Assembly: GCA_029559035.1 (NCBI GenBank) | Contig: JAKQCT010000066.1 | Span: forward strand, 64,832 to 128,831 | Direction: 5' to 3' | Source of the DNA: Acidobacteriota bacterium | GTDB lineage: Bacteria; Acidobacteriota; UBA4820 | DNA length: 64,000 nt | Part shown: in pieces, positions 14,895 through 39,357 of the stretch | Numbering within the stretch: the stretch's first letter is position 1 | Layout of the letters: each line of letters begins with the position of its first letter | Notes under the pieces: generated by a model | The model's input: only the letters and a program-made list of their open reading frames with translations | Database searches by the model: none | Told to the model about the DNA's origin: nothing | Made by a program: the position numbers and the translations under genes

Positions 14895-15124
14895 CGGCAG
14901 GATCTGAAGGCTGAAGGCTGAAGAGCTGAAGTTCAACAAGGAAATTGATTCCACAATTTTAAAATTTAATCTTTAAAATTTGAAATTTAAAATGCAGGCG
15001 TGTCCTGCGAACAGGCTGAAGACTGAAGAGCTGAAGGGTCGATAAGGAAATGGATTCCACAAATTTGAAATTTAATCTTTAAAATTTGATATTTTAAATT
15101 CAGGCGTGTCCAGCCGGGCTGACG
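14895..15124. repeat. Modular repeat block (family B: GCTGAAG(G/T)-rich units plus GATTCCAC..AATTT(A/G)AAATTT modules), two tandem ~110-bp units
   Basis: …gctgaagttcaacaaggaaattgattccacaattttaaaatttaatctttaaaatttgaaatttaaaatgcaggcgtgtcc… repeated at 15035. Related modules recur at 16521, 22495, 36305, 36985, 38495, 39285. Confidence 0.6.
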
Positions 15125-22747: not shown

Positions 22748-24553
22748 ATGGGCTTATGTTGTAAGTGGGCGAGACATCGCGCTGGAGGGCAAGGGGTGGC
22801 CGAAGATAACGGGGGAAAAGACCTCACGAAAGAACGCATCGGGGAACTCGAGGACGCCTACCGGGTGATCGAGGAATACAACAGGATGAAGGAATCCGCC
22901 CCGCAATCCCCGCCTGCCGAGCCGCCTCCAACCGAACCGGCGACGCCGGAACAACCCGCGCCTGAACTTCCGCCCAGGCAGGAGCCTCCGCTTCCGTCCC
23001 CGCCCGCCGGCCATTCGAAACCCGCCGTCGTTCTCAGGGAGATCATAAAGAGCGTCACCCCGAAACCCTCGCCGCAAAAGATGACCAGGGAAGAGCGTCT
23101 GCAGGACAGGGAGCTTCTCTCGCAGTACAAGGGGCCGCGGCTCTACTGGCGGATAATCACCGTACTGACGATGATAATCCCTCCGATCCTGGCCTTCGTG
23201 GCGACGCTCGACCTTTTCAGGGTCAGGAACCACGAACTGCCCAGCCGTTACAAGTTCGCCCTTCACTACTGCATTCTCCTTCTGCTGACGGGCATCGGCT
23301 TCAATTATTTCTTCTTCCAGGACTCTCTGGGAGCCCTGAGCTCCGTCGAACTATGGCAAAGCGTTCTCAGCCTCTTCGCTCTCTTTTTCCCGCCCCTTCT
23401 CATCTGCATAGTGATCGTGGACATGATAAGAAGGCGCAACATGCGCATGGGGCCCTCCTACCTGCTCCACTACATCCTGCTCATCTCGGGCCTGTCGTGG
23501 CTTTTCATCAAGGTGGTGATCGCCCCCGACCTCGACACGCCGGACATCCTCGATATCGTCAACATCCTCCCCGCCATCTACACGGAGATCTTTCCGCCCG
23601 TCCTCTTTCTAATGATAATCCTCGGGCTGATAGGCATCCGCAACAGGCACCTCGCCAGCAGGTACTCCCATACGATCCACTACTGCAGGCTCCTTATCGT
23701 CGCCGGGACGCTCTGGTGGATCCTGCTCGCGACGGGCGAAGAGTTCAACTTCTGGGAGCCGATCAGATCGCCCGCGTCCCCCTCGAAGCTAACCCTTTTA
23801 CGCCTTGACAATTTCCCGGATACCGCGGCCCGGAAGGAGGAGATGACAGGCAGGGATATCGCGCGCGACTACATGCACCTGGTCGCCAAGATAAGCCAGG
23901 TTTACGAATACCGCTTCGCCCCCGGCCAAGGCGGCAATTCAGGGAGCACCGTCGTAATAATGGCCGACGAGCAGAACCTCTATTTCCTCACCTGCGACCA
24001 TGTCGTTGACATGGACGACAACGGAAGTTCCATAAACAACATCATCGACATAGCGATGGAGAACGGCCAGACCTCCCAGGCGAAGGTCATAGGCGCCCAC
24101 AAGAAATACGACCTCGCGTTCCTGCTGGCGCGAAGGGATTCATCAAAAACAGAAATGCCCGCAAAGGATTTTATCCTGCCGATAAGGTCCTCCGAAACGA
24201 TCGAGACGGGAGAACACATCTTTGCCATCGGCCATCCGCTGGGTCGCAACTTTTCCCTATCCGACGGCCTCGTTTCCCAGAAAATTGACCTTAAAGAAAA
24301 AGAGTATAACGGCCTCATCCAGATATCAGCCCCCGTCAGTCCCGGCAACAGCGGCGGACCCGTTTTCGACAGCAGGGGCAACCTGATCGCCATAGCCGCC
24401 CGAAGCTTCTCGCCCATATTCAGAGCTCAGAACCTGAATTTCGCCGTCCGCGCCGACGCCATTTTCGATATCAAAGATTGGGTACTCACCGAAGAAGGAA
24501 AAAAAGCGCTGGAGAAGATCGCCGAGACGCATGGGAAGGGGAAAGATACTTAG
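22748..24553 (+). CDS. Membrane-anchored trypsin-like (S1/HtrA-type) serine protease with Pro-rich linker
   Basis: Pro-rich region (PPAEPPPTEPATPEQPAPELPP), ~8 TM helices, then protease motifs …TCDHVV…, …GHPLG…, GNSGGPVF. Start uncertain between 22748 and 22886. Confidence 0.7.
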   Translation: MGLCCKWARHRAGGQGVAEDNGGKDLTKERIGELEDAYRVIEEYNRMKESAPQSPPAEPPPTEPATPEQPAPELPPRQEPPLPSPPAGHSKPAVVLREIIKSVTPKPSPQKMTREERLQDRELLSQYKGPRLYWRIITVLTMIIPPILAFVATLDLFRVRNHELPSRYKFALHYCILLLLTGIGFNYFFFQDSLGALSSVELWQSVLSLFALFFPPLLICIVIVDMIRRRNMRMGPSYLLHYILLISGLSWLFIKVVIAPDLDTPDILDIVNILPAIYTEIFPPVLFLMIILGLIGIRNRHLASRYSHTIHYCRLLIVAGTLWWILLATGEEFNFWEPIRSPASPSKLTLLRLDNFPDTAARKEEMTGRDIARDYMHLVAKISQVYEYRFAPGQGGNSGSTVVIMADEQNLYFLTCDHVVDMDDNGSSINNIIDIAMENGQTSQAKVIGAHKKYDLAFLLARRDSSKTEMPAKDFILPIRSSETIETGEHIFAIGHPLGRNFSLSDGLVSQKIDLKEKEYNGLIQISAPVSPGNSGGPVFDSRGNLIAIAARSFSPIFRAQNLNFAVRADAIFDIKDWVLTEEGKKALEKIAETHGKGKDT

Positions 24554-24577: not shown

Positions 24578-24991
24578 ATGCCTTTTTATCATTTTACTGA
24601 CACAAGGAACCTTCCTTCAATAAAACGTCACGGTCTCCTTAGTTGGTACAACTTACGCAATAGGAACATCGATCATTTTCCTGCATCTAATGATCTATCC
24701 CGTAAACTCGACTTAAAAAAAAGCCTTGAGAATTATGTCCGTCTTTGCTTAAAACCAAATCACCCTATGGCAAGTCGAGCATTATCTGAAGGAAGAATCC
24801 AAAGAATAGCATGGTTAGTTATTGATGACGCAGTGTCGCGGTGGCGATCCACCCTCTATAGCAATACAAATGCAACCGCAAACAATGCCGTAATTGATCA
24901 TGATATTAGAACGATTTACAATAGTTTTGATTCTCAGGCTGAAGTTCTTGTCGAAGGAGGTATTTCTCTCAAATGGATTACATTTCCGTAA
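24578..24991 (+). CDS. darT: DarT-like (DUF4433) DNA ADP-ribosyltransferase toxin, compact 137-aa form
   Basis: MPFYHFTDTRNLPSIKRHGLLS (DUF4433 N-motif), …ENYVRLCLKPNHPM…, C-terminal …SQAEVLVEGGISLKWI (catalytic Glu in QAE[VF]LV context). AGGAGG RBS; first gene of the AT-rich island. Confidence 0.6.
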   Translation: MPFYHFTDTRNLPSIKRHGLLSWYNLRNRNIDHFPASNDLSRKLDLKKSLENYVRLCLKPNHPMASRALSEGRIQRIAWLVIDDAVSRWRSTLYSNTNATANNAVIDHDIRTIYNSFDSQAEVLVEGGISLKWITFP

Positions 24992-25024
24992 TTTGATGGT
25001 TTCATTGAAAGAGCGAGGATAGAA

Positions 25025-25720
25025 TTGGCAGAAAGACCTGTTTTTATTCCTAATCACACCGGCAAGCAACTTGTTATTGAGAAAAATATTTCTTTTCATT
25101 GGAATCCAGGAATGAGCATATCTCAGAAAAGAAAGAACATAGTTGCTTTGCACGAAGCCGCCAGCATGATTGGAGTGTCACCGATTCTTGAAGTATCTAC
25201 AAAGTCCGATCAACAGATTGGCAATAGATTAAGTGCCTTCAACCTCAAAGTTAGAAGGAATACTGGGACACATATTTCTCTGGAATCTGCATTCCAAGGC
25301 AGTAAGGTATTTAAATACGGCGGCCCCTATAGTGACTTATATGGAAAAAGTGGCTTTGAGTGCAAAAAGGACGAGCGATTAAAGAACTCCGGTGAACTGG
25401 TTTCTTTCTGTTATGATGGCATTGAATGGGATCTTTCACCCCATACAGCTTTTTATGATTGGCTATATGTGAACGCAGTCCATTCGGGTCCATGTATTGA
25501 TGATGTGCTTCTTAGATACAACGGGTTCAGCGATATTGAATTCAATCCGGCAAAATCAATCAACTGCCAGGCCCGCTCATGCGCTTTATATGTTTCTCTG
25601 AAGAAAAGAAAACTTCTCGAAAATGCCATTAAAGACAAAGATTGTTTTATTGAACTGGTAAAAAACGGATACATTCAAAAGACCGACTTATCCCAAATGC
25701 ATCAAGGGAGCTTATTTTAG
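25025..25720 (+). CDS. Uncharacterised 231-aa protein in the antitoxin position downstream of darT-like; not a macrodomain
   Basis: 34-nt gap, same strand. No macro motifs (no GGG…AI / GIYG). Weak by-eye NADAR-like pattern FKYGGPYSDLYGKSGF…DGIEWDLSPHTAF. Confidence 0.5.
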   Translation: MAERPVFIPNHTGKQLVIEKNISFHWNPGMSISQKRKNIVALHEAASMIGVSPILEVSTKSDQQIGNRLSAFNLKVRRNTGTHISLESAFQGSKVFKYGGPYSDLYGKSGFECKKDERLKNSGELVSFCYDGIEWDLSPHTAFYDWLYVNAVHSGPCIDDVLLRYNGFSDIEFNPAKSINCQARSCALYVSLKKRKLLENAIKDKDCFIELVKNGYIQKTDLSQMHQGSLF

Positions 25721-26949: not shown

Positions 26950-27163
26950 TCACTACCTCCCCATATGCATCATTAAATGAACATTTTTTCAAAAGTGTTG
27001 TGATCTAACACTACTGAAAATATTTGCCCATCATGCTTCATCAACTCCTCTCCACCATTTTTCACGCCCAATCTATTCTACTCCTATCCTATTTCCAAAA
27101 AAATCCCCCGCCCTTGGGCTTTCGCTTCGGGGCGGGGGTGTCTTCAGCCATCAGCCTTCAGTT

Positions 27164-27898
27164 TTACTGTTTTGCTGCTTTCTTCGCCTTTCTCGTCGCT
27201 GCGGCCTTTTCGGGGGCTTTGCGCTGCGCGGCTGTCTTGCCGTTGCGCTTCAATATGCCCAGCTTTTCAAGAAGCTGGGGCTGGTCCCTCAGGGCGACCT
27301 TTGCGACCTTGATGAACGCGCTCATCCAATAGTCGATCGCTTCCATCGCCTTGTTCTGTTCATAGGTGGCCTGCTGGGCGGCTCCCTTCGCCGATTCCTG
27401 CGCCTGGTTCGCGGCCGTCAGCTCGACGATCTTTCCCCTCTCCTTCGAAAGCTTTTCGACAGTATATCCGTAAGACGACAGGATGTCGGTTATCTCCGCC
27501 GTGTGCGAAGCGTTGTCAAAGAGGGCCGTCGCCATCGTGATGAACAGCGGCAGGGCGTTCGGCATCGCGGCGTTCAACCCCAGAACCGCCAGCTTGGCCT
27601 TGTCCCTGACAAAAGCCGCCCTCGCCACCTGGGCGAGGTTCTGATAAGCCTTTTTCGCCTCCTTCTCGGCAGCCGACAACCTTGCCGTCGAATCCTTCTG
27701 GTCCCCGTAAGCGGCGACCTGCTTCTTTACAGCCGCCTCGGCCGCCTCGTACAAGCCCTTGCCCTCGCTGATCTTTGCCGTCTGGTAGCCGTACTCCCCC
27801 AAAAGCTGTCCGATCTGGGGATCCGAAAGAGCATTCGAAATTGCCACGTTCGCGGAAATCAACCTCTCTGACAAAGCGTTCTTCGGTCTGACCATCAT
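27164..27898 (-). CDS. Alpha-helical protein with C-terminal Lys/Ala-rich histone-H1/AlgP-like tail; candidate DNA-binding protein for the adjacent iteron array
   Basis: C-terminus …KTAAQRKAPEKAAATRKAKKAAKQ. The gene start abuts the 21-bp repeat array. Confidence 0.45.
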   Translation of the reverse strand: MMVRPKNALSERLISANVAISNALSDPQIGQLLGEYGYQTAKISEGKGLYEAAEAAVKKQVAAYGDQKDSTARLSAAEKEAKKAYQNLAQVARAAFVRDKAKLAVLGLNAAMPNALPLFITMATALFDNASHTAEITDILSSYGYTVEKLSKERGKIVELTAANQAQESAKGAAQQATYEQNKAMEAIDYWMSAFIKVAKVALRDQPQLLEKLGILKRNGKTAAQRKAPEKAAATRKAKKAAKQ

Positions 27899-27940
27899 GG
27901 CCTCCTTTCAGAAAAACTACTCTCCTTTGGTATGCGCTTC

Positions 27941-28306
27941 TGCTACTGGATTATCTTTCACTGCTACAACTCTATTTGCCTTTGCTACCGCCCCATTTGA
28001 CACTGCTACAGCCCGATTTCCCACTGCTACCATCCTATTTGTCGTTGCTACGACCCGATTTGTCCTTGCTACCGGGACGACAGCCATTGCTACCACGGTA
28101 GCAACCGCAGACAGGCCGGTAGCAACCATAAAATGACCGGTAGCAATCGTTTTTATGCCGGTAGCAATCACAGAAAGAGCGGTAGCAGCCATTAACATGG
28201 CCGTAGCAGACACAATTATGGCGGTAGCAACAATAATGTTACAGGTAGCGGACATAATTGTGGCGGTAGCAGACACAAACATGCCGGTAGGAATCAAAAA
28301 GAGAGA
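27941..28306. repeat. Non-coding array of 18 exactly 21-bp-phased repeats: 8x TGCTAC(C)… converging on 10x GGTAGCA… (inverted), centre TTGCTACCACGGTAGCAA; iteron / centromere-like (parC-type) site
   Basis: TGCTAC at 27941, 27962, 27983, 28004, 28025, 28046, 28067, 28088. GGTAGCA (or 1-mismatch) at 28097, 28118, 28139, 28160, 28181, 28202, 28223, 28244, 28265, 28286. Each unit also has an AT-rich sub-core (cc.ATTTg). Confidence 0.85.
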
Positions 28307-28482
28307 CTTGTAACAGGCTAACAGGCATAAAGATGTCGTAGAATGGCCACCGAACAAGCAAATATCGGCAAGAATCAATGAACCCCCCACAACCAGTTAA
28401 TAAAATCTATAAATAGTGGTTATCTAAGGGGGAATTATAGAGAGCGCGACGGGAGATGTCAAGAGGGGGGGAGGCCTAAGAT

Positions 28483-29913
28483 TTAGGTTAAGCCCATATC
28501 GTTCTTAATCTCAATAATAACTTCTTCTGTTCTTTCTCTTAACAAAGAATATTTTGACATTTCCTTTGTAGTATCTAGAAAAGATTCGAGTTTTTCCAAA
28601 GCCACAGGTGCGTTGTTTATCTTATAATAATAAAGAAACCCCAGAATAAAAAGAGAAGCATAAAACGTTGGGTTTTGTTGAAAATAGCTCTCGTTAAACC
28701 TGGTGCATCTGTCGATTGCCACAACTTCATTCTTAAAAATGTTGTCCTTTATTCTCGTATAATAGGAATAAGCGGTCTCATAATTCTCTATATACATATT
28801 TAGGAAGGCTTGGTTGTAAAGCCAAGTGCCGTCGCCATCAGAGAGAATTCCCGCCGCTCGACAATAATCCAATGCTTTATAGGCATCTCCATCAATTAGA
28901 AAAGCATAGTAAGCCTTTGATACAACAATAGAGTAATTGTTCTTATCAATTTTCTCAGCTTTAGCAACAAATGCCTTTGCCGATTTAATATCAGCTTTAG
29001 CATAGGCATTAATGGCTTTTTGAATGAGTTCCTCTATCAGCATCGAGCGTGTTCTTTCGTAAATATACACTATATTTGGTGGTTGTGGCTTGAAGTTCGA
29101 TAGATCCGCAAGCAGAGTGTTGTGGATATTATATGCAGTATTTGGATCGCCAGATACTAAGGCTGCCCATCCAATCATATACTGAGATGCCAAAAAGATC
29201 ATTTCCGCAGTGACTTGAAAACCACTAACTTCAAATGCCTCGTCAAACACAACTTCCTTCGGCAAAATTGCGTTGAATTCTTTTGATGCCTCTTTTGTAA
29301 CTGAGAAGTCTTTTGGTACATGTCTCACCATTGCGTTAAAAGTCAAGTAATATTTCTCTTCCCCCTCCTTTCGTTTTATAACGGAACCCCATATATACAA
29401 ATGAAAATGAGTCTTATTAATGAGTTTGCTGTGCATCTTGATTTTCTTGCTTTTTTGAAAGTCTTTTATTCTTTTCGTTTCAAGAAGCTTCTTCATTTCA
29501 TGTTGATATTCCATGAATAATTCATTAGCCATTTGGGCCTTGCACTCTTCAAAACATACTATATTAAGGAGATCGTCCAGTTTTTTCTTTTTACTTACCG
29601 CGTTCATGTTTTTAATAAAATCGTTTTTGATTCTGATTTTTTGATCGTCGTCTTCCGCTGTTATAGAAACGGCAATACCAATTCTATTCTTCAGGTTTTT
29701 AGGGTAGTGTTCTTTCCATAAGTACCAAGTAACAAACCAGCCAAAAAAAAGGATTAGATAAATCACCCATCTCAGCCATACTTCATCCAGAATATCTTTT
29801 AGCAAGCCATCTGTTGGTAATATCACCACCAGATACAACATAATGCAGCCAACGAAAAAGCCAACAGGTTTATTCTTGTATGTGTGGAAATACTCTTTAG
29901 GTAACTCAATCAT
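28483..29913 (-). CDS. Membrane-anchored (2 TM) TPR/Sel1-like helical-repeat protein, last gene of the Type III-like R-M operon
   Basis: N-terminal TM helices (…VGFFVGCIMLYLVVILP…, …WVIYLILFFGWFVTWYLW…); C-terminal TPR-like Ala/Tyr-rich repeats; AT-rich. Confidence 0.55.
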   Translation of the reverse strand: MIELPKEYFHTYKNKPVGFFVGCIMLYLVVILPTDGLLKDILDEVWLRWVIYLILFFGWFVTWYLWKEHYPKNLKNRIGIAVSITAEDDDQKIRIKNDFIKNMNAVSKKKKLDDLLNIVCFEECKAQMANELFMEYQHEMKKLLETKRIKDFQKSKKIKMHSKLINKTHFHLYIWGSVIKRKEGEEKYYLTFNAMVRHVPKDFSVTKEASKEFNAILPKEVVFDEAFEVSGFQVTAEMIFLASQYMIGWAALVSGDPNTAYNIHNTLLADLSNFKPQPPNIVYIYERTRSMLIEELIQKAINAYAKADIKSAKAFVAKAEKIDKNNYSIVVSKAYYAFLIDGDAYKALDYCRAAGILSDGDGTWLYNQAFLNMYIENYETAYSYYTRIKDNIFKNEVVAIDRCTRFNESYFQQNPTFYASLFILGFLYYYKINNAPVALEKLESFLDTTKEMSKYSLLRERTEEVIIEIKNDMGLT

Positions 29914-29958: not shown

Positions 29959-30309
29959 TCATCCAATCGTCATGATCATGTATTCCATGTTCCTCTGCTT
30001 GCACCATATTTCCGCTGCTTTTCGTTTTCTCTGGACATCGTCGGAATCTATCCGGCTCGGGTCTTTGACTTCAATTATTACTTTCTTCCCATCTTCATAT
30101 TCGACGAAAAAATCCGGCACATACTTTCTTTGATGCTTCTGCCCATCGATCCAGGGAATGGTAATGCCGTGCCTTTTCATCCATTTCTTCACGAAAGGGT
30201 CTTTTTCAAGGCGGTCCATCATTCTTCTCTCAAGATCGCTGTGGTAGTTCTCGAAGTTCCAGGGGCTCTTCTTCGGATTTGCGTATTCACCGCGAATGCT
30301 AATCGCCAT
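29959..30309 (-). CDS. Small PD-(D/E)xK nuclease-fold protein (116 aa), possibly the detached endonuclease module of the upstream Res helicase
   Basis: …YVPDFFVEYEDGKKVIIEVKD… = D…E-V-K core; overlaps the res stop by 11 nt. Confidence 0.5.
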   Translation of the reverse strand: MAISIRGEYANPKKSPWNFENYHSDLERRMMDRLEKDPFVKKWMKRHGITIPWIDGQKHQRKYVPDFFVEYEDGKKVIIEVKDPSRIDSDDVQRKRKAAEIWCKQRNMEYMIMTIG

Positions 30310-32317
30310 ATTCTATTATCCCCCCTATAAGGCCAGGAACCTCTCTCACGTTCCTAAGTACCTGGGTAAGCATTCTCCATGCATAATCAATTTCCTGGCG
30401 ATCTGCAAGCCCGATGGAGTTGCCGTTCATGAATCTTTTCCTGACATGGTGAAGCAGGGCGCTGTAAACCTTGTCTTTTGAAGATGCTGCATACCCTGCC
30501 TCCACAGTCAATGCTTCTGCCATTTCAAGCAACCTTGATTTTAGTGCTTCTCTCACATCATCGTCGCTGATTTCCACTATGGGGATTTGGCCTTCATATT
30601 CCCCGGGAGCGGCATGAACACTTTTCCAGCCTTCCCCACCAAGCTCCTGCCCTGTCACCCCGTTAATCTCAACTTTTGTTATTTCAACAACATTGGGATC
30701 ATACTGGATTGCGTTTAAAGCTTCCTTCCAGTTTTCAAGCGGTTTCGGTGGAGGAGGGACATCCCCGACATCGAATTCGCCCTCATCCTTATAATCAGGG
30801 TCTATCGGAGGAAGATCAATAACGTTGTCAGGTTCGGTCAGTTCCTGTTTCTTTGGCGGCGGCGGCAAATCCTCCGTCTCATCAAAGAGGTCATCGATCT
30901 TGACGCCGACCCTTTTCTTTGCGTTGAAAATATCCCACAGCCATTGATGCTCAAGCTTTGGGTGGTCAACTACCGCGCAAATCTGCGGCTCGGAAGCATC
31001 AACCCCCTTGGCTCGCACCCGTCTAAGACCGCGACCAACAACTTGTTGTCCGTAAACCTTGCTCCCGAATTTTCTAAGAAGCAGTATCACCCCAACCTCA
31101 GGCACGTCCCAACCTTCGCGAAGCATCAGAACACTTACAACCGCGCGATACGGCATTGCGGTCTTCTGCTGTCTTCCAAGCTCTCTTGCCTTCTGCCTGT
31201 CCTCTTCGTCGCTGTCCTCTGTAACCATGAGCGCTTTTACTTTAAAATAGTTATTCAAGGTCTGTGCGGCCTTTTCTGCGTCAGCTTTGCACACCGCCAC
31301 TACAAAAAGAATAGGCTGGTATCGTCCCTTCGCTCGGCCTTCCTGTTCTTCAAGACGCTTTAATGCTATTGCCATCTGTTGGCGCATGGGCTCATCGTCC
31401 GTAACCCACTGTGTCGCGTTCAAGCCCAGCCGGTCTACCTCGTCCCAATCAATTTCCTCAACCTTCCTCTTTTCTCCCGTCTTTGCATCTGTATATGTCA
31501 GCTGAACCGTCTTGATATCAGGCTGATAGACAACCGGTGTCTTGATGATCCCGTCTGACAGCGCGTCTCTTACGCCGTATTCATAGATCATCTCGCTGTC
31601 CGGCACTTTCCCGTCGGCTCTGTCGGGAGTGGCCGTAGTGTCGAGGCGCAGGATGACCTTTTCTCTCATCTTCTTGAGGGTTGCGTCATATTCAGTAGCG
31701 GGCGAGTTGTGGGCTTCATCATTGAATAGGACAAACTCTGGCCCGTTCATGAGCGCAGAAAGGTTACTCTGGCCGCTTTTATTGCTCTGATAGAACTGAT
31801 GAATATTTCCAAGAACAACATCCGCCGAGAAAAGGCTGGCCCATCCCTTCTCCCTGTCAGCCCCAAGAGTAGTAAGAATGAAATCCTTGGATGTGGAATG
31901 CCCCCATTCTGGCAACAGGTCGCGGTCTACGAACACCTTCCCATTCTGAAAATCGTCTTCCAGCCTGTCCCTTACAATGAGATTGGGGCACAGCATGACG
32001 AATTTTCTCGTATCGTAGGCTATCCTTTGCCAGGCAATTACCGCCGCGATAATTGCTGTTTTGCCGCCCCCTGTAACTATGTTCAAAAGAAGGCCGTCAA
32101 GTCCTATCACCGGTTTCTTTAGTATCTCATGCGAATAAATGACTCTGAGAAAAGATTCCCACTGATGAGGCCATAAAGTCCCTTCTCTCGGCAGTTGGTC
32201 GTCATCTTTCGAAGTAAGAAAACCGATATATTTGTACGATTCATCCTTCAGCCCCGGCATCCCGTCACGTCGCCAATCCCTGAAGGCATCCTCATGTCGA
32301 GAGAATTGATTAAACAT
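30299..32317 (-). CDS. res: Type III restriction enzyme Res-like SF2 helicase (DEAH), apparently lacking its own nuclease domain
   Basis: Walker A TGGGKT, motif II FNDEAHNS, helicase C-domain motifs; 672 aa, shorter than typical ~900-1000 aa Res. Confidence 0.8.
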   Translation of the reverse strand: MFNQFSRHEDAFRDWRRDGMPGLKDESYKYIGFLTSKDDDQLPREGTLWPHQWESFLRVIYSHEILKKPVIGLDGLLLNIVTGGGKTAIIAAVIAWQRIAYDTRKFVMLCPNLIVRDRLEDDFQNGKVFVDRDLLPEWGHSTSKDFILTTLGADREKGWASLFSADVVLGNIHQFYQSNKSGQSNLSALMNGPEFVLFNDEAHNSPATEYDATLKKMREKVILRLDTTATPDRADGKVPDSEMIYEYGVRDALSDGIIKTPVVYQPDIKTVQLTYTDAKTGEKRKVEEIDWDEVDRLGLNATQWVTDDEPMRQQMAIALKRLEEQEGRAKGRYQPILFVVAVCKADAEKAAQTLNNYFKVKALMVTEDSDEEDRQKARELGRQQKTAMPYRAVVSVLMLREGWDVPEVGVILLLRKFGSKVYGQQVVGRGLRRVRAKGVDASEPQICAVVDHPKLEHQWLWDIFNAKKRVGVKIDDLFDETEDLPPPPKKQELTEPDNVIDLPPIDPDYKDEGEFDVGDVPPPPKPLENWKEALNAIQYDPNVVEITKVEINGVTGQELGGEGWKSVHAAPGEYEGQIPIVEISDDDVREALKSRLLEMAEALTVEAGYAASSKDKVYSALLHHVRKRFMNGNSIGLADRQEIDYAWRMLTQVLRNVREVPGLIGGIIEYGD

Positions 32318-32318
32318 C

Positions 32319-34334
32319 CTATTTCACCTCAACTTCGCCGGTCCAAATGCCTTCACCGCCCATATCATCCTGGACTTTACAGGCGACCGTAATCTTTCCT
32401 TCTTCGGGGAATTCATACTGAACCGACGACATCGGTTCCTTCTTGTCTGTCTTGGCAAATGCGTAATTGGCAGAGCTAGAAAAGCGATCTTGGTAATCAA
32501 AATCCCACTGAACATTGATTATTTTTGCGCCGGGATTCATAACGATAGTTTCGCTGGCGTCGAATTTATAAACCTTGTGGCTGATTCTCCTCATCCCCAC
32601 TTCTACCTTTGGGGATTGGACGAAGGTAAGGAAATTTTCGTAATCGGCGTGATCGGTGGAGAGCTTGGTGATGTGCTGCCGGAACGGTGGTGAATCAATG
32701 CGCACCATATCGAGCCGGATAAAATTGAGGTCTGTCAACTCCAGTCGTCTTAGCCTCTCAGCAGCTTCAACAGCATCAGGCCTGAACGCCCAGGCAAGCA
32801 TCATTCCGTCCCTTAAGTTGTCCTGCTGATATCTGAGCCCTTTTCTTATAGCATTGGCGAAATCCTGAACATCCTTGGAGGTGACCGCTTTTTTCTGGTC
32901 GGGCGATCCTATCCAGATTGGGATTGCCCCCTTATACCCATGTATCCCTTTTTCATTGCTCTCTATAACAGCGCCGAAAGCTTTTAAAACAAACGCCTGG
33001 AATTCCTTTTCCGGCATCTTCTCCATACGGCGTGCTTCATATACGCCCCAGTGCTCGACAGTGAAGTCGGGAACGGGGAAAAGGTTGCCTATCTTTTCTT
33101 CAACGAGACGCGTCAACCGATCAGCAGTTATTGCCACAGCCACACGGGATTGATCGCAGGCAATCCAGTGACGGCCAAGACGCTGGGCAACTGCGGCTGT
33201 AGTACCGCCACCAGAAAAAACGTCAGCAACTACATCGCCTTCAATTGTGAATGCCTTAATTACCTTTTCAAGCAATTCTTCAGGCTTTTGCGTTGGATAT
33301 CCTATTCTTTCATTTGCTGACTGATTGATAATATCCATTACCCACCAGTCTTTAGGTTTAACACCAACTTTCTCATCAAGATAATCTACTCGACACAGCT
33401 CAGGAGCCTTTGTCAACCATTCAATACCCACATCAGTAGAATTTTGAATTGGGCTCTCTTTAAGATTTCTCCCGTGAAGCCGGAATCTTCTCCCGTCATT
33501 ATCAATATGCTTATATTTTTTAATCGTGACCTCTGAAAAGGTATCGGCTACATTTTTCCAATTGTAACGATAGTGGGGAAAACCACTCTTTGAATACCAT
33601 AATATAGTATCATGTTGTGGGACAAATCGAGAGGTGCTTTGGTAGTAAGTAGTGTTTTTGCACCAAATAATTTCGTTCTTAAACCCAGGTTCTTTGCCAT
33701 CCTTGTCTCCATGACCAAAGATTTTGTCCAACTCCACCTTCACGTAATGGACTGCATGCAAATCAAGATGCACAATAAGCGATCCAGACTTCTTCAACAA
33801 TCTCTTTATTTCATATAGCCTTGCATTAAGCCAGATGAGATATCCTGGCATTCCGCCTTCCCAAATATCCGAGAAGGAGCGCAGTTCATTCTTGTCACCA
33901 AATATCACATTGTAATTCCGCCCAGAGAAGAAAGGCGGGTCAATATAAACTAGGTCAATGCTCTCACTTGGGAGCTGCCTCATCACGTGCAAGTTATCTC
34001 CCCAAAATAGTCTATTGGGTTCGAGATCAGGATGTCCGAATTTGACCCTCTCGACTATCTGGAATGGCAGTGATATTGTCGGAAAGAGCTTCCTGAATCC
34101 TCTCCTTCTATCCCATCCCAGCGGCTCCTTTTCAACCGGAACGCTCCCGAATCTTGTTGGCGGCCGCCAGAAGTCTTCTTGCTCCGGTAACGCTTCAATA
34201 CGCTCTTCTTCCACAGGAACTTCAATCTTTTTGAACTCATCCTCTGAGGTGCCTATCTCGGCAATCAGCGTCTTCTTTCCTTCATCCTTTTTCTTTGTCA
34301 TTATTTTTCCCCATTTGTGCGTAAAGCTGCCCAA
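32319..34334 (-). CDS. mod: Type III-like Mod N6-adenine (or N4-cytosine) DNA methyltransferase
   Basis: Motif IV IDPPF before motif I FSGGGTT (beta-class order); abuts res (1-nt gap). Confidence 0.85.
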   Translation of the reverse strand: MGSFTHKWGKIMTKKKDEGKKTLIAEIGTSEDEFKKIEVPVEEERIEALPEQEDFWRPPTRFGSVPVEKEPLGWDRRRGFRKLFPTISLPFQIVERVKFGHPDLEPNRLFWGDNLHVMRQLPSESIDLVYIDPPFFSGRNYNVIFGDKNELRSFSDIWEGGMPGYLIWLNARLYEIKRLLKKSGSLIVHLDLHAVHYVKVELDKIFGHGDKDGKEPGFKNEIIWCKNTTYYQSTSRFVPQHDTILWYSKSGFPHYRYNWKNVADTFSEVTIKKYKHIDNDGRRFRLHGRNLKESPIQNSTDVGIEWLTKAPELCRVDYLDEKVGVKPKDWWVMDIINQSANERIGYPTQKPEELLEKVIKAFTIEGDVVADVFSGGGTTAAVAQRLGRHWIACDQSRVAVAITADRLTRLVEEKIGNLFPVPDFTVEHWGVYEARRMEKMPEKEFQAFVLKAFGAVIESNEKGIHGYKGAIPIWIGSPDQKKAVTSKDVQDFANAIRKGLRYQQDNLRDGMMLAWAFRPDAVEAAERLRRLELTDLNFIRLDMVRIDSPPFRQHITKLSTDHADYENFLTFVQSPKVEVGMRRISHKVYKFDASETIVMNPGAKIINVQWDFDYQDRFSSSANYAFAKTDKKEPMSSVQYEFPEEGKITVACKVQDDMGGEGIWTGEVEVK

Positions 34335-36634: not shown

Positions 36635-36756
36635 GGCTTCTCTCCTTTCCCTGCAACTTCAGCCTTAAGCCTTCAGCCTTAAGCCCTTGCGAAGCAATAT
36701 TATACTCCCTCCCCCCTGTCATTTGGAGCAACAGGCCCTCGCTCCGCTTTCGCTAC

Positions 36757-36910
36757 GCTTCCCGAAGAGAGGAGCTATCCTATCCTCTCTTAGGCGCTCC
36801 GCTCGCATACTCGCTGCGCTGAACACTCCCCCGGCAGGGAATGTGCCCTTTCGCAAAATGAATTTGTCTCAGGGCACAACATTCTATGCCCAGTGGGCAG
36901 GCTAAAGGCG
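36757..36910 (+). repeat. Family A structured repeat, copy 2
   Basis: Near-identical to 15125-15255 and 39097-39250. Confidence 0.65.
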
Positions 36911-37130
36911 GAAGGCTTACGCCAGAGCTGAAGAGCTGAAGGCTGATGGCTGAAGCCAGAGCTGAAGGCTGAAGGCGGAAGGCTGAAGTTCAATAGGGAA
37001 AAAGATTCCACAATTTTTCACTTTTCAATGCCGGCGTGTCCTTCGGACAGGCTGAAGGCTTAAGGCTGAAGCGCTGAAGTTCAATAAGGAAATGATTCCA
37101 CGAAGGTGAAATCAGGATGACCCTGTCCTG
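36895..37130. repeat. Family B modular repeat block (GCTGAAGG tandems plus gattccac modules)
   Basis: …gaaggcttacgccagagctgaagagctgaaggctgatggctgaagccagagctgaaggctgaaggcggaaggctgaagttcaatagggaaaaagattccacaatttttcacttttcaat…aaatgattccacgaaggtgaaatcaggatg. Confidence 0.55.
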
Positions 37131-39004: not shown

Positions 39005-39096
39005 TGATTCCTCCAGCAATATGATATGGTCAATGCTTTCCGAATGCAAGTGCTTTTCCTGAAAGAGCATCCAGAGCGGATGGCTGAAGGATGACG

Positions 39097-39250
39097 CTTC
39101 CCGAAGAGAGGAGCTATCCTATCCTCTCTTAGGCGCTCCGCTCGCATACTCGCTGCGCTGAACACTCCCCCGGCAGGGAATGTGCCCTTTCGCAAAATGA
39201 ATTTGTCTCAGGGCACAACATTCTATGCCCAGCGGGCAGGCTAAAGGCTG
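39097..39250 (+). repeat. Family A structured repeat, copy 3 (directly upstream of hicBA copy 3)
   Basis: Near-identical to copies at 15125 and 36757. Confidence 0.65.
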
Positions 39251-39357
39251 AAGGCTGACGCCAGAGCTGAAGGCTGAAGGCTGATGGCTGAAGTTCAATA
39301 GGGAAATGATTCCACGATTTTTCATTTTTCAATCTTTAAACCGCGCGGGGTCATGCC

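What the first reader, a model, noticed from the sequence alone, without database searches (positions are those of the whole stretch)
27164..28310. Perfectly phased 18-unit, 21-bp repeat array (two convergent halves) next to a gene with an H1-like Lys/Ala tail
Eight TGCTAC-headed units at 27941, 27962, 27983, 28004, 28025, 28046, 28067 and 28088 are exactly 21 bp apart. They run into ten GGTAGCA-headed units at 28097 to 28286, also exactly 21 bp apart, in inverted orientation. The halves meet at the palindrome TTGCTACCACGGTAGCAA. Each unit also has an AT-rich sub-core (cc.ATTTg / AAAT..gg). A 21-bp period is two helical turns, so all sites lie on one DNA face. This architecture is typical of plasmid or phage centromeres (parC/parS-type), iteron origins or large nucleoprotein operators. 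The array is non-coding; the ORF across it just translates the periodicity as VATA heptads. It sits immediately upstream of the start of a 244-aa alpha-helical protein whose C-terminus (…KAPEKAAATRKAKKAAKQ) resembles histone H1/AlgP-type DNA-binding tails. The array plus this protein, and possibly the adjacent 375-aa coiled-coil protein, may be a partition or silencing module of the mobile island.
Basis: seen in the sequence. Interest (0 to 1): 0.75.

Follow-up and report, generated by a model that had tools for sequence, protein, structure and literature searches.

The report
Protein with its own phased DNA-site array
The 21-bp repeat array is real and is the cognate binding platform of the gene next to it: this is one copy of a widespread, unstudied bacterial module in which a small helical protein appears to read its own upstream repeat array through a few N-terminal residues that co-vary with the repeat sequence.

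Summary
In detail: 8 + 10 units in exact 21-bp register meet at the palindrome TTGCTACCACGGTAGCAA. The array is non-coding.

It is not a local curiosity. The 244-aa protein belongs to NCBIfam NF052641 ("PQLLE family", a name only), with about 3,300 clusters at 50% identity across at least 7 phyla. In 38 of 44 homologous loci a 21-bp-period array lies just upstream of the gene, although the unit sequence differs between loci. No other gene is conserved alongside. Here the unit is a 1.4-kb cassette: a 12/12 sigma-70 consensus promoter, leader, array, gene and terminator.

The key result is covariation between the protein's N-terminal arm (here V-R-P-K) and the array core:
- Core position 6 = C goes with Arg (14/14); G goes with Lys (16/20).
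- Core position 3 = A goes with Thr (13/14); T goes with non-Thr (14/14).
- This pair tops an unbiased scan (z = 16.5), is at amino-acid level and holds in held-out loci.
- It also holds where the array is inverted relative to the gene.

I therefore infer sequence-specific double-stranded DNA binding, probably one protomer per 21-bp unit, with autoregulation. The cellular role is unknown. Plasmid or phage partition is unsupported (no hits in plasmid, phage or viral collections), and the 375-aa neighbour is not part of the module.

The parts
27045..28471 (-). Whole cassette: promoter, leader, array, gene, terminator
   Evidence: The contig L050 encodes a 95%-identical protein. It shares DNA with the window only over 28471-27170 (92%) and 27138-27045 (80%); the flanks are unrelated. 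GC is about 55% against 32-41% in the flanks.
28434..28462 (-). Predicted sigma-70 promoter, TTGACA-17-TATAAT (12/12 match); -35 at 28457-28462, -10 at 28434-28439
   Evidence: It is conserved in L050, and DNA similarity with L050 begins there. This is a sequence prediction only.
28307..28427 (-). Leader between the predicted transcription start and the array
   Evidence: Inferred from the promoter position. It is 89% identical to L050, about the same as the array spacers.
28097..28306 (+). Distal half-array: 10 units of 21 bp, core GGTAGCA(A) on the + strand, so inverted relative to the gene
28087..28104 (.). Junction palindrome TTGCTACC-AC-GGTAGCAA, two cores head to head
   Evidence: The same core palindrome is found in L001, L003 and L051. 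A single inverted unit with the same offset sits at the distal edge of L019, L022, L027, L028 and L041.
27941..28096 (-). Proximal half-array: 8 units, core GTAGCA on the gene's strand, second block CAAAT
   Evidence: Core positions changed at 2/108 sites against 25/258 spacer sites between the window and L050 (Fisher p = 0.008).
27901..27906 (-). Shine-Dalgarno AGGAGG. The spacing favours the second ATG (27895) as the true start, giving the 243-aa form seen in P0001
   Evidence: Read from the sequence. P0001 starts MVRPK.
27164..27898 (-). PQLLE-family gene (244 aa; all-alpha, two internal repeats, basic tail)
   Evidence: NCBIfam NF052641 at 179 bits against a cutoff of 80. AF2 pLDDT 88.6. 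Internal duplication E = 3e-6.
27881..27892 (-). Codons of the N-terminal arm V3-R4-P5-K6, the residues that co-vary with the array core
27167..27250 (-). Codons of the basic C-terminal tail (residues 217-244, net charge +10), conserved KTAAQR..KAAATR.AKK
27097..27138 (-). Intrinsic terminator: CCCCCGCCC / GGGCGGGGG stem followed by a T-run
   Evidence: Read from the sequence. The scan missed it because the loop exceeds 8 nt. It is conserved in L050 and L051.

Best explanation
The array and the gene form a self-contained two-part module. The PQLLE protein binds its own upstream array as double-stranded DNA, in a sequence-specific way, using a short N-terminal arm (x-[R/K]-[P/S]-x; here V-R-P-K) to read the 8-bp core of each 21-bp unit.

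My inferences beyond that:
- Protomers tile head to tail at one per unit, that is, every two helical turns on one face of the DNA. The roughly 84-Å two-repeat helical rod would act as the ruler, and the conserved basic tail would contact the backbone.
- In this lineage two filaments of opposite polarity start from a central head-to-head palindrome.
- Because the array lies between a very strong promoter and the start codon, occupancy should throttle the gene's own transcription (cooperative autoregulation).

Shown: array-gene linkage, selection on the core, phase-preserving indels, and orientation-independent arm-core covariation.

Inferred: binding itself, stoichiometry, roadblock or autorepression, and any further cellular role (chromatin-like organisation or anchoring).
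For: 1. 38 of 44 homologous loci from at least 7 phyla have a 21n-period array within 900 nt upstream. Elsewhere there are 13 short hits in 378 kb. The period is always 21 although the unit sequences diverge.
2. No other gene is conserved within +-6 kb, and the cassette boundaries run from promoter to terminator.
3. The core is under purifying selection (2/108 against 25/258 substitutions, p = 0.008). Between contigs encoding the identical protein, the array differs by exactly one 21-bp unit.
4. Covariation: core position 6 = C goes with Arg 14/14; G goes with Lys 16, Arg 2, Asn 2 (p = 8.6e-8). Core position 3 = A goes with Thr 13/14; T goes with non-Thr 14/14 (p = 7.5e-7). 13 of 14 closest disjoint pairs are concordant for each, including pairs whose protein bodies are 85-92% identical.
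5. These pairs top an unbiased scan of 1,970 column x position pairs (z = 16.5, 10.1, 8.2, against a background of about 6-8).
6. The covariation is at amino-acid level: Arg is encoded by AGA x6, CGA x7 and CGT x1, and Thr by all four ACN codons.
7. Held-out loci fit (L102, L015, L029, L026, L041). So do arrays inverted relative to the gene: L037 has arm AQKSK with antisense CGGAGGAA, the same pairing as sense GGGAGGAA in L006/L054, and L002 has arm TRPK with antisense GGAAGC.
8. Co-resident modules in one MAG use different cores in 6 of 7 genomes, which argues against a shared host factor.
9. The protein has two homologous halves and two 56-residue helices, and each unit has two conserved blocks about 10-11 bp apart.
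Against: - Binding has not been demonstrated.
- I assigned the core registers and consensus sequences myself, and the sequences are phylogenetically related. One held-out locus (L043, a short array next to a truncated gene) breaks the Arg/Lys rule.
- The second arm (MP[K/R] in the inter-repeat linker) does not rise above background in the covariation scan, so one protomer per unit is not established.
- The array is very likely transcribed (promoter upstream), and most arrays keep one orientation, so an additional RNA-level role is not excluded.
- Same-type orphan arrays exist without an adjacent PQLLE gene.
Confidence: 0.6

Rival explanations
1. RNA-level module. The array is functional as the roughly 530-nt 5' leader RNA (or as a separate repeat RNA). 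The protein binds each 21-nt repeat, for translational autoregulation or as a type III toxin-antitoxin-like pair of RNA repeat and protein.
For: - A consensus promoter lies upstream of the array, and promoter-like elements lie upstream of arrays in other lineages.
- The sense strand is purine-rich in most arrays.
- L051 has a terminator-like hairpin between array and RBS, and 4 of 37 loci do.
- The orphan array L073 ends in a hairpin plus T-run.
- The window's leader folds better than shuffles (z = -3.3).
- The architecture recalls ToxIN, with repeats upstream of the protein gene (PMC8860590).
Against: - The same arm-core pairing holds when the array is inverted relative to the gene (L037, L002). 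In those loci the mRNA would carry the complement of the core.
- In bipartite arrays both halves are equally conserved.
- The period is exactly two B-DNA turns.
- The protein is unrelated to ToxN/AbiQ, with no PADLOC or Pfam hit.
- Most loci lack a terminator between array and gene.
- Rfam finds nothing.
Confidence: 0.15
2. Centromere or partition (or chromosome-anchoring) module. The array is a parC/stbS-like site, and the protein is an NTPase-less centromere-binding protein that segregates or tethers the DNA carrying it.
For: - The architecture matches single-protein or CBP systems: the gene is preceded by arrays of direct and inverted repeats that the protein binds and through which it autoregulates. 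Examples are R1 ParR/parC (PMC2241845), R388 StbA/stbS with two sets of five repeats, and pSK1 Par (bioRxiv 10.1101/2022.04.29.490116; PMC5016525).
- The arm-core covariation supports binding.
- The cassette is mobile between contexts.
Against: - There are no hits in plasmid, phage or viral collections.
- Loci are chromosomal and lie next to housekeeping genes such as rpoC, Tex and rRNA.
- Up to four or more copies occur per MAG.
- The mobile unit is only 1.4 kb, with no replicon or NTPase.
- There is no homology to ParR, StbA, TubR or Par.
Confidence: 0.15
3. The array is a coding heptad repeat (21 nt = 7 codons), either an upstream ORF or an N-terminal extension of the protein.
For: - A 157-aa ORF spans the array on the gene's strand, and gene callers annotate it in L050 and L051.
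- In L001, L012 and L018 the array ORF runs in frame into the gene.
- A superficially similar array in L087 is a real coding heptad repeat on the opposite strand.
Against: - Many arrays have stops in all three sense frames (for example L016, L019, L006, L030), some in all antisense frames, and L032 in all six.
- Conservation within units is in contiguous blocks and is not 3-periodic.
- In the window two in-frame stops separate the array ORF from the gene (read).
- The inverted halves argue for a nucleic-acid-level signal.
Confidence: 0.02
4. Iteron-type replication origin of an integrated element, with the protein as initiator.
For: The units are of iteron-like size (21 bp) and are phased and in two orientations, as in P1 and F replicons (from my own knowledge). 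The geminivirus precedent shows iterons upstream of rep co-varying with N-terminal Rep residues (PMC12548392).
Against: - There is no Rep-like fold or family hit.
- The 1.4-kb cassette sits in chromosomes in several copies.
- The family is absent from plasmid and phage collections.
- No DnaA boxes or AT-rich unwinding element stood out in the 27000-28500 sequence; I ran no systematic search.
Confidence: 0.03

Closest known systems
ParR/parC of plasmid R1, and type Ib/III centromere-binding proteins such as ParG/parH and TubR/tubC
   Same: An array of phased direct repeats lies immediately upstream of the gene for the protein that binds it. The protein coats the repeats cooperatively, and the same site acts as operator, so the system is autoregulated (PMC2241845, PMC5016525).
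   Different: - Those proteins have RHH or winged-HTH folds, work with an NTPase motor, and are plasmid- or phage-borne.
- Here the protein is an all-alpha two-repeat rod with no detectable homology.
- There is no partner gene, the units are 21 bp instead of 11-12 bp, and loci are chromosomal and multi-copy.
Single-protein, NTPase-less systems: R388 StbA/stbS and pSK1 Par
   Same: One protein plus an upstream array. stbS has two sets of five repeats, and pSK1 is described as a single-protein system. The protein is both site binder and autorepressor (bioRxiv 10.1101/2022.04.29.490116).
   Different: StbA and Par use N-terminal HTH domains and stabilise plasmids. PQLLE proteins have no HTH, and their specificity tracks a 4-residue N-terminal arm. 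A partition function is not supported here.
Geminivirus Rep and its iterons
   Same: Iterated motifs upstream of the gene are recognised by the encoded protein. Closely related members have different iterons matched by changes in N-terminal residues of the protein (PMC12548392). That is the same comparative logic that revealed the arm-core code here.
   Different: Rep is an HUH endonuclease and replication initiator of ssDNA viruses, with 5-6-nt iterons in small numbers. Here there are 8-26 phased 21-bp units, a bacterial chromosomal setting and no nuclease or replication domain.
Type III toxin-antitoxin systems (ToxIN, CptIN, TenpIN)
   Same: Promoter, then tandem short repeats, then a protein gene, forming a compact mobile two-part cassette often found in defence islands (PMC8860590).
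   Different: In ToxIN the repeats act as RNA, a terminator separates them from the toxin gene, and the toxin is a ToxN/AbiQ endoribonuclease. Here recognition is independent of orientation, which points to DNA. A terminator is rarely present between array and gene (4/37 loci), and the fold is unrelated.
NCBIfam NF052641 'PQLLE family protein'
   Same: The window's protein is a member (179 bits against a cutoff of 80).
   Different: The model gives a motif-based name only. No function, array association or recognition code is attached to it in what the tools show, and no relevant paper contains the term.

Membership tests
NCBIfam NF052641 PQLLE family | HMM score above the curated cutoff over the full profile | tested here: met
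   E = 8.8e-53, 179.1 bits against a cutoff of 80; profile positions 3-211 of 211 matched.
PQLLE module (as defined in this work) | A 21-bp-period non-coding array within about 900 nt upstream of the gene | tested here: met
   Window array at 27941-28306. 38 of 44 homologous loci share the feature.
PQLLE module (as defined in this work) | The N-terminal arm matches the array core according to the covariation rule | tested here: met
   The window has V-R-P-K with GGTAGCAA. Position 6 = C goes with Arg, position 3 = T with non-Thr, and positions 1-2 = GG with Lys.
Type II partition (ParMRC) | Ribbon-helix-helix ParR-type centromere-binding protein | tested here: not met
   The model is all-alpha with no strand. 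There is no Pfam or PDB-sequence hit.
Type II partition (ParMRC) | Adjacent actin-like (or other) NTPase motor gene | tested here: not met
   No gene is conserved with the module within +-6 kb. The window's neighbours are unrelated.
Type II partition (ParMRC) | Phased direct repeats upstream of the operon that also act as its operator | tested here: inconclusive
   Repeats are present upstream. Operator function is inferred only from their position between promoter and ATG.
Single-protein partition (pSK1 Par, R388 StbA) | N-terminal HTH DNA-binding domain | tested here: not met
   No HTH family hit. The fold is a helical rod.
Single-protein partition (pSK1 Par, R388 StbA) | Carried on low-copy plasmids and stabilises them | tested here: not met
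   No tblastn hit in 72,556 plasmids. Stabilisation itself cannot be tested with these tools.
Type III toxin-antitoxin | ToxN/AbiQ-type endoribonuclease toxin | tested here: not met
   No Pfam or PADLOC hit. The all-alpha fold is unrelated.
Type III toxin-antitoxin | The repeats act as RNA, with a terminator between repeats and toxin gene | tested here: not met
   No terminator between array and gene in the window; only 4 of 37 loci have a terminator-like hairpin there. Inverted arrays obey the same protein code.
Iteron replicon | Rep initiator gene next to the iterons | tested here: not met
   No Rep-family or winged-helix hit for the protein or its neighbours.
Iteron replicon | Supports autonomous replication; DnaA boxes and an AT-rich unwinding element adjoin the iterons | not tested
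   I ran no systematic search for DnaA boxes or an unwinding element. Autonomous replication needs an experiment.
CRISPR array | Repeats of 23-50 bp alternating with unique spacers of similar length, with cas genes or a leader | tested here: not met
   The period is 21 bp in total, with an 8-bp core. No cas genes were found among the window proteins scanned against PADLOC, apart from a weak Csa3-like HTH match in the 352-aa HATPase protein.
Coding heptad-repeat protein | A consistently open reading frame through the repeats across homologues | tested here: not met
   Stops occur in all sense frames in many loci and in all six frames in L032.

The most novel reading that the evidence does not exclude
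PQLLE modules are a previously unrecognised, widespread class of bacterial sequence-specific DNA-binding proteins. Their specificity is set by a simple, readable N-terminal arm code (Arg for C:G, Lys for G:C at core position 6; Thr for A at position 3; Lys for GG at positions 1-2). They polymerise on cognate 21-bp phased arrays. Several orthogonal protein-array pairs coexist in one genome, together with orphan arrays. The modules would then act as addressable chromatin, insulator or anchoring elements, not as simple autoregulators, and the code could be reprogrammed for synthetic biology.
Probability: 0.3. Interest if true: 0.85.

Novelty: new variant of a known kind. Interest (0 to 1): 0.72.

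Why it matters
The finding turns a motif-named family of "hypothetical proteins" (about 3,300 clusters at 50% identity in Acidobacteriota, Chloroflexota, Bacteroidota, Ignavibacteriota, Planctomycetota, Verrucomicrobiota and others) into a testable system. Each gene comes with its own predicted binding site array and an apparent residue-to-base recognition rule.

If binding is confirmed, several things follow:
- It adds a new non-HTH, non-RHH fold to the repertoire of sequence-specific DNA binders.
- It gives a natural set of orthogonal protein-site pairs.
- It explains a recurrent cause of assembly breaks, since several contigs end inside these arrays.
- Annotation pipelines could stop calling spurious ORFs across the arrays.

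Tried and rejected
- DNA similarity of the array region to plasmids and phages: no match.
- Protein against plasmids, phages and IMG/VR: no match.
- Pfam, PADLOC and PDB-sequence searches on the protein and on the family alignment: nothing meaningful.
- Rfam on the window region, on 10 related loci and on the side repeat: no family.
- Conserved neighbour search: only frame-shadow ORFs of the gene and array cluster together. The 375-aa coiled-coil and the 476-aa protein are therefore dropped from the module.
- A defence-system reading based on the island context: not general, because contexts are heterogeneous.
- Array-side test in metagenomes with 4x GGTAGCA at 21-bp spacing: the pattern was too permissive. 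It returned 17 7-mer microsatellites and 26 near-perfect tandem repeats, and some hits were coding repeats. Only 1 of 80 loci had a PQLLE gene. The test is uninformative about exclusivity, but it revealed a few same-type orphan arrays.
- Terminator or attenuator between array and gene: seen in 4 of 37 loci only. The recurring stem-loop 36-58 nt upstream of the ATG is mostly within chance expectation for short stems.
- Covariation of the second arm (linker MP[K/R]) with the second block: suggestive by eye but not above phylogenetic background in the unbiased scan.
- Compensatory pairing between the two halves as an RNA rod: only the cores are complementary, and the spacers are not (sequence read by eye; fold).
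Full report
OBSERVATION. The array is exactly as described. On the + strand, TGCTAC heads start at 27941, 27962, 27983, 28004, 28025, 28046, 28067 and 28088. GGTAGCA-type heads start at 28097 through 28286. All are 21 bp apart, and the halves abut at TTGCTACCACGGTAGCAA (28087-28104). Three of the ten right-hand heads are slightly degenerate. GGTAGCAA occurs 9 times in the 64-kb window against 0.83 expected, and 8 of the 9 are in the array. TRF finds no other 21-period array in the window. The array ends 43 nt upstream of the ATG of a 244-aa ORF on the minus strand (27164-27898). The Shine-Dalgarno spacing favours the second ATG, which gives the 243-aa form seen in the closest relative.

CONTEXT. 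The window contains a low-GC island (about 15-39.5 kb) rich in defence-type genes. These are a type III R-M system with a TnsA-like endonuclease, DarT1/NADAR, RhuM, an HATPase+DUF4325 protein and a membrane trypsin-like protein. The array and gene have about 55% GC against 32-41% in their immediate flanks. A contig encoding a 95%-identical protein (L050) shares DNA with the window only from 28471 to 27045, and its flanks are unrelated. That 1.43-kb block is a complete transcription unit:
- a 12/12 sigma-70 consensus promoter (TTGACA-17-TATAAT, 28462-28434, minus strand), lying exactly where the similarity begins;
- a leader of about 120 nt;
- the 18-unit array;
- the RBS and the gene;
- a GC-rich hairpin with a T-run (27097-27138).

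The 375-aa coiled-coil protein and the 476-aa protein next door lie outside this block.

THE MODULE IS WIDESPREAD. The protein has no Pfam, PADLOC or PDB-sequence match. It is a clear member of NCBIfam NF052641, "PQLLE family protein", which is a motif name without a function. No relevant paper uses the term. The family has 387 or more clusters in the 90%-identity database and 3,328 representatives at 50% identity (E <= 1e-3; 2,351 at <= 1e-10). Nearly all are single-domain proteins of 215-250 aa. A scan of one genome per species returned 49 loci in MAGs of Acidobacteriota, Aminicenantes, Chloroflexota, Bacteroidota, Ignavibacteriales, Planctomycetia, Opitutales, Armatimonas and Zhuqueibacterota, often with several copies per MAG.

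In 38 of 44 loci with an intact N-terminus, TRF finds an array of period 21 (or 42/63/84) within 900 nt upstream. Elsewhere in the same loci there are 13 short hits in 378 kb. The period is always 21, although the unit sequences differ. Cores include GGTAGCAA, GGTAGGAA, GGAAGGAA, GGGAGGAA, AGGAGCAA, TCAAGCAA and CTAAGGAA, followed by a second block about 10-11 nt later. No other gene is conserved within +-6 kb. Contexts range from R-M remnants and transposase clusters to rpoC, Tex, rRNA and sugar-metabolism genes. The family is absent from 72,556 plasmids, 50,697 phages and 2.9 M viral contigs.

THE ARRAY IS NON-CODING AND UNDER SELECTION. Many arrays have stops in all three sense frames, others in all three antisense frames, and L032 in all six. 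Within-array conservation falls in contiguous blocks and is not 3-periodic. Between the window and L050, core positions changed at 2 of 108 sites against 25 of 258 spacer sites (p = 0.008). Between contigs encoding the identical protein P0020, the array differs by exactly one 21-bp unit, so indels preserve phase. Several contigs end inside arrays.

ARCHITECTURE VARIANTS. Most arrays run in one orientation, with the purine-rich core on the gene's sense strand. Five Chloroflexota loci add a single inverted unit at the distal edge, with the same offset as the window's palindrome. The Acidobacteriota-type clade (window, L050, L001, L003, L051-53, L056-58) has the full bipartite, convergent form. 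L037, and largely L002, have only inverted units.

KEY RESULT: ARM-CORE COVARIATION. I aligned 34 proteins and wrote each array's core in a common register (for example G1 G2 T3 A4 G5 C6 A7 A8). Two adjacent N-terminal residues then track two core bases.
- At the window's Arg4 column, C6 arrays have Arg in 14 of 14 loci. G6 arrays have Lys in 16 loci, Arg in 2 and Asn in 2 (Fisher 8.6e-8). The two Arg exceptions (L008, L011) turn out to have mixed GGAAG[C/G/A]AA units.
- At the Val3 column, A3 arrays have Thr in 13 of 14 loci, and T3 arrays never have Thr (14 of 14; 7.5e-7).
- Among the closest disjoint pairs that differ in the base, 13 of 14 are concordant for each rule. These include L019/L020 (92% identical bodies), L009/L055 (88%) and L021/L031 (85%).
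- In an unbiased scan of 1,970 protein-column x unit-position pairs, the top signals are residue 4 with position 6 (z = 16.5, MI = 1.0 bit), residue 6 with position 2 (z = 10.1) and residue 3 with position 3 (z = 8.2). The diffuse phylogenetic background lies around z = 6-8.
- The signal is at amino-acid level. Arg is encoded by AGA (6), CGA (7) and CGT (1), Thr by all four ACN codons, and the non-Thr class by nine unrelated codons. This rules out the first codons being a degenerate repeat unit or an RNA pairing partner.
- Loci not used to find the rule fit it (L102, L015, L029, L026, L041, plus near-duplicates L060-62). One short array beside a truncated gene (L043) does not.
- Co-resident modules in one MAG use different cores in 6 of 7 genomes, which argues against a shared host factor.

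DNA OR RNA? The rule holds when the array is inverted relative to the gene. L037 has the arm AQKSK and 12 antisense-strand units CGGAGGAAyC, and the same arm pairs with sense-strand GGGAGGAA in L006/L054. L002 has TRPK and antisense GGAAGC. In those loci the mRNA leader would carry the complement of the core, so the common target is most simply the duplex. The exact period of two helical turns, the half-site spacing of 10-11 bp, the head-to-head palindrome and the equal conservation of both halves in bipartite arrays point the same way. The pattern is also chemically reasonable for a groove-reading arm, from general knowledge of protein-DNA contacts: a G is always present at base pair 6, read by Arg on one strand or by Lys on the other.

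An RNA-level role is not excluded. The array is almost certainly transcribed, and promoter-like elements lie upstream of arrays in other lineages as well. Most arrays keep one orientation. A few loci have a terminator-like hairpin between array and gene. One orphan array (L073) ends in a hairpin plus T-run.

MECHANISM PROPOSED. Protomers bind one per 21-bp unit and tile head to tail along one face of the DNA. In this lineage they spread outward in both directions from the central palindrome. Occupancy between the strong promoter and the start codon gives cooperative negative autoregulation. The basic tail supplies non-specific backbone contacts or bridging. Binding, stoichiometry and repression are all inferred. 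The second arm (linker MP[K/R], homologous to the N-terminal [R/K]P[K]) looked correlated with the second block by eye, but it did not exceed background. The higher-level role is unknown; autoregulated chromatin protein, insulator, anchor or selfish cassette are all possible.

COMPARISON WITH KNOWN SYSTEMS. The logic is that of centromere-binding or operator-array proteins: ParR/parC, ParG/parH, TubR/tubC, StbA/stbS and pSK1 Par (PMC2241845, PMC5016525, bioRxiv 10.1101/2022.04.29.490116). The way specificity evolves resembles geminivirus Rep and its iterons (PMC12548392). Membership in any of these families fails on fold, partner genes and replicon type. Type III toxin-antitoxin systems (PMC8860590) share the layout of repeats followed by a gene, but they differ in molecular level and in fold. 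I found no description of the array association or of the arm code in the searchable literature. That search covers open-access papers only.

CAVEATS.
- I assigned the core registers and consensus sequences myself.
- The sample is about 45 loci from MAGs, and binning and gene-start errors are possible.
- The pairwise-contrast control is approximate.
- The promoter and terminator are sequence predictions.
- The metagenome array-side test used too permissive a pattern. Most of its 80 hits were 7-mer microsatellites, near-perfect tandem repeats or coding repeats. It says little about exclusivity, but it did reveal same-type orphan arrays.

VERDICT. This is a real, conserved and apparently undescribed protein-plus-array module. 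Comparative evidence for cognate dsDNA recognition is strong. Plasmid or phage partition is not supported.

Noticed in passing
window 36746-36988 and 39096-39293; also 14908-15111 and 27142-27162; L051:10075-10271: A lineage-specific repeat of about 200 nt, with a GCTGAAG/CTTCAGC heptamer-rich head, occurs twice near the right edge of the low-GC island, and a related heptamer-rich tandem lies at the left edge (about 15 kb). The same CTTCAGCCATCAGCCTTCAG string sits between the PQLLE stop codon and its terminator. There is no Rfam match. These could be REP/MITE-like elements or island-boundary repeats.
   Followed up: partly
L130:1428-1637, L135:836-1192, L073:314-544, L091:273-650, L114:23-253, L074:1074-1283 (coordinates in the orientation where the core reads GGTAGCA): Orphan arrays of the same type (conserved GGTAGCAA core, variable spacer, 21-bp period, 10-18 units) have no PQLLE gene nearby. 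L073 ends with an inverted copy of its last unit plus a T-run. L074 precedes a glycosyltransferase gene. They may be trans targets of PQLLE proteins or independent elements.
   Followed up: partly
array-to-ATG interval of L004, L005, L007, L011, L018, L019, L022, L025, L027, L031, L041, L051, L055 and others: A stem-loop recurs 36-58 nt upstream of the start codon in many sequence-diverse loci. Only 4 of 37 are terminator-like, and short stems are within chance expectation. The window itself has none.
   Followed up: partly
L087:102-416: A superficially identical GGTAGCAAT 21-bp array is a genuine coding heptad repeat (IATNTSD-type) on the opposite strand of a phage-like gene. Core plus period alone therefore does not identify a PQLLE array.
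   Followed up: no
window 24578-25720: A DarT1-like ADP-ribosyltransferase fragment (137 aa, matching only the N-terminal part of the 201-position DarT profile) is followed by a full-length DarT1-associated NADAR antitoxin (E = 4.6e-88). The toxin may be truncated.
   Followed up: no
window 22748-24553: A 601-aa protein combines a Pro-rich N-terminus, a hydrophobic repeated middle region and a C-terminal trypsin-like domain. The protease domain matches those of PADLOC RT-protease and LmuA models. L050 also has a Trypsin_2 gene near its PQLLE cassette.
   Followed up: no
window 29959-34334: A type III R-M pair (N6/N4 methylase at 32319-34334, Res helicase at 30299-32317) is immediately followed by a 116-aa TnsA-like/restriction-endonuclease-fold protein (29959-30309).
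   Followed up: no
L050:4784-5257, L051:5531-5956, L056:7177-7893: Gene callers annotate spurious 141-238-aa ORFs across the arrays. These will exist in databases as hypothetical proteins with VATxxxx-like heptads.
   Followed up: no
L010, L015, L029 (array at position 1 of the contig) and several loci with the gene 300-700 nt from a contig end: Assemblies frequently break inside these arrays, which suggests repeat-induced assembly failure and under-representation of the arrays in MAGs.
   Followed up: no
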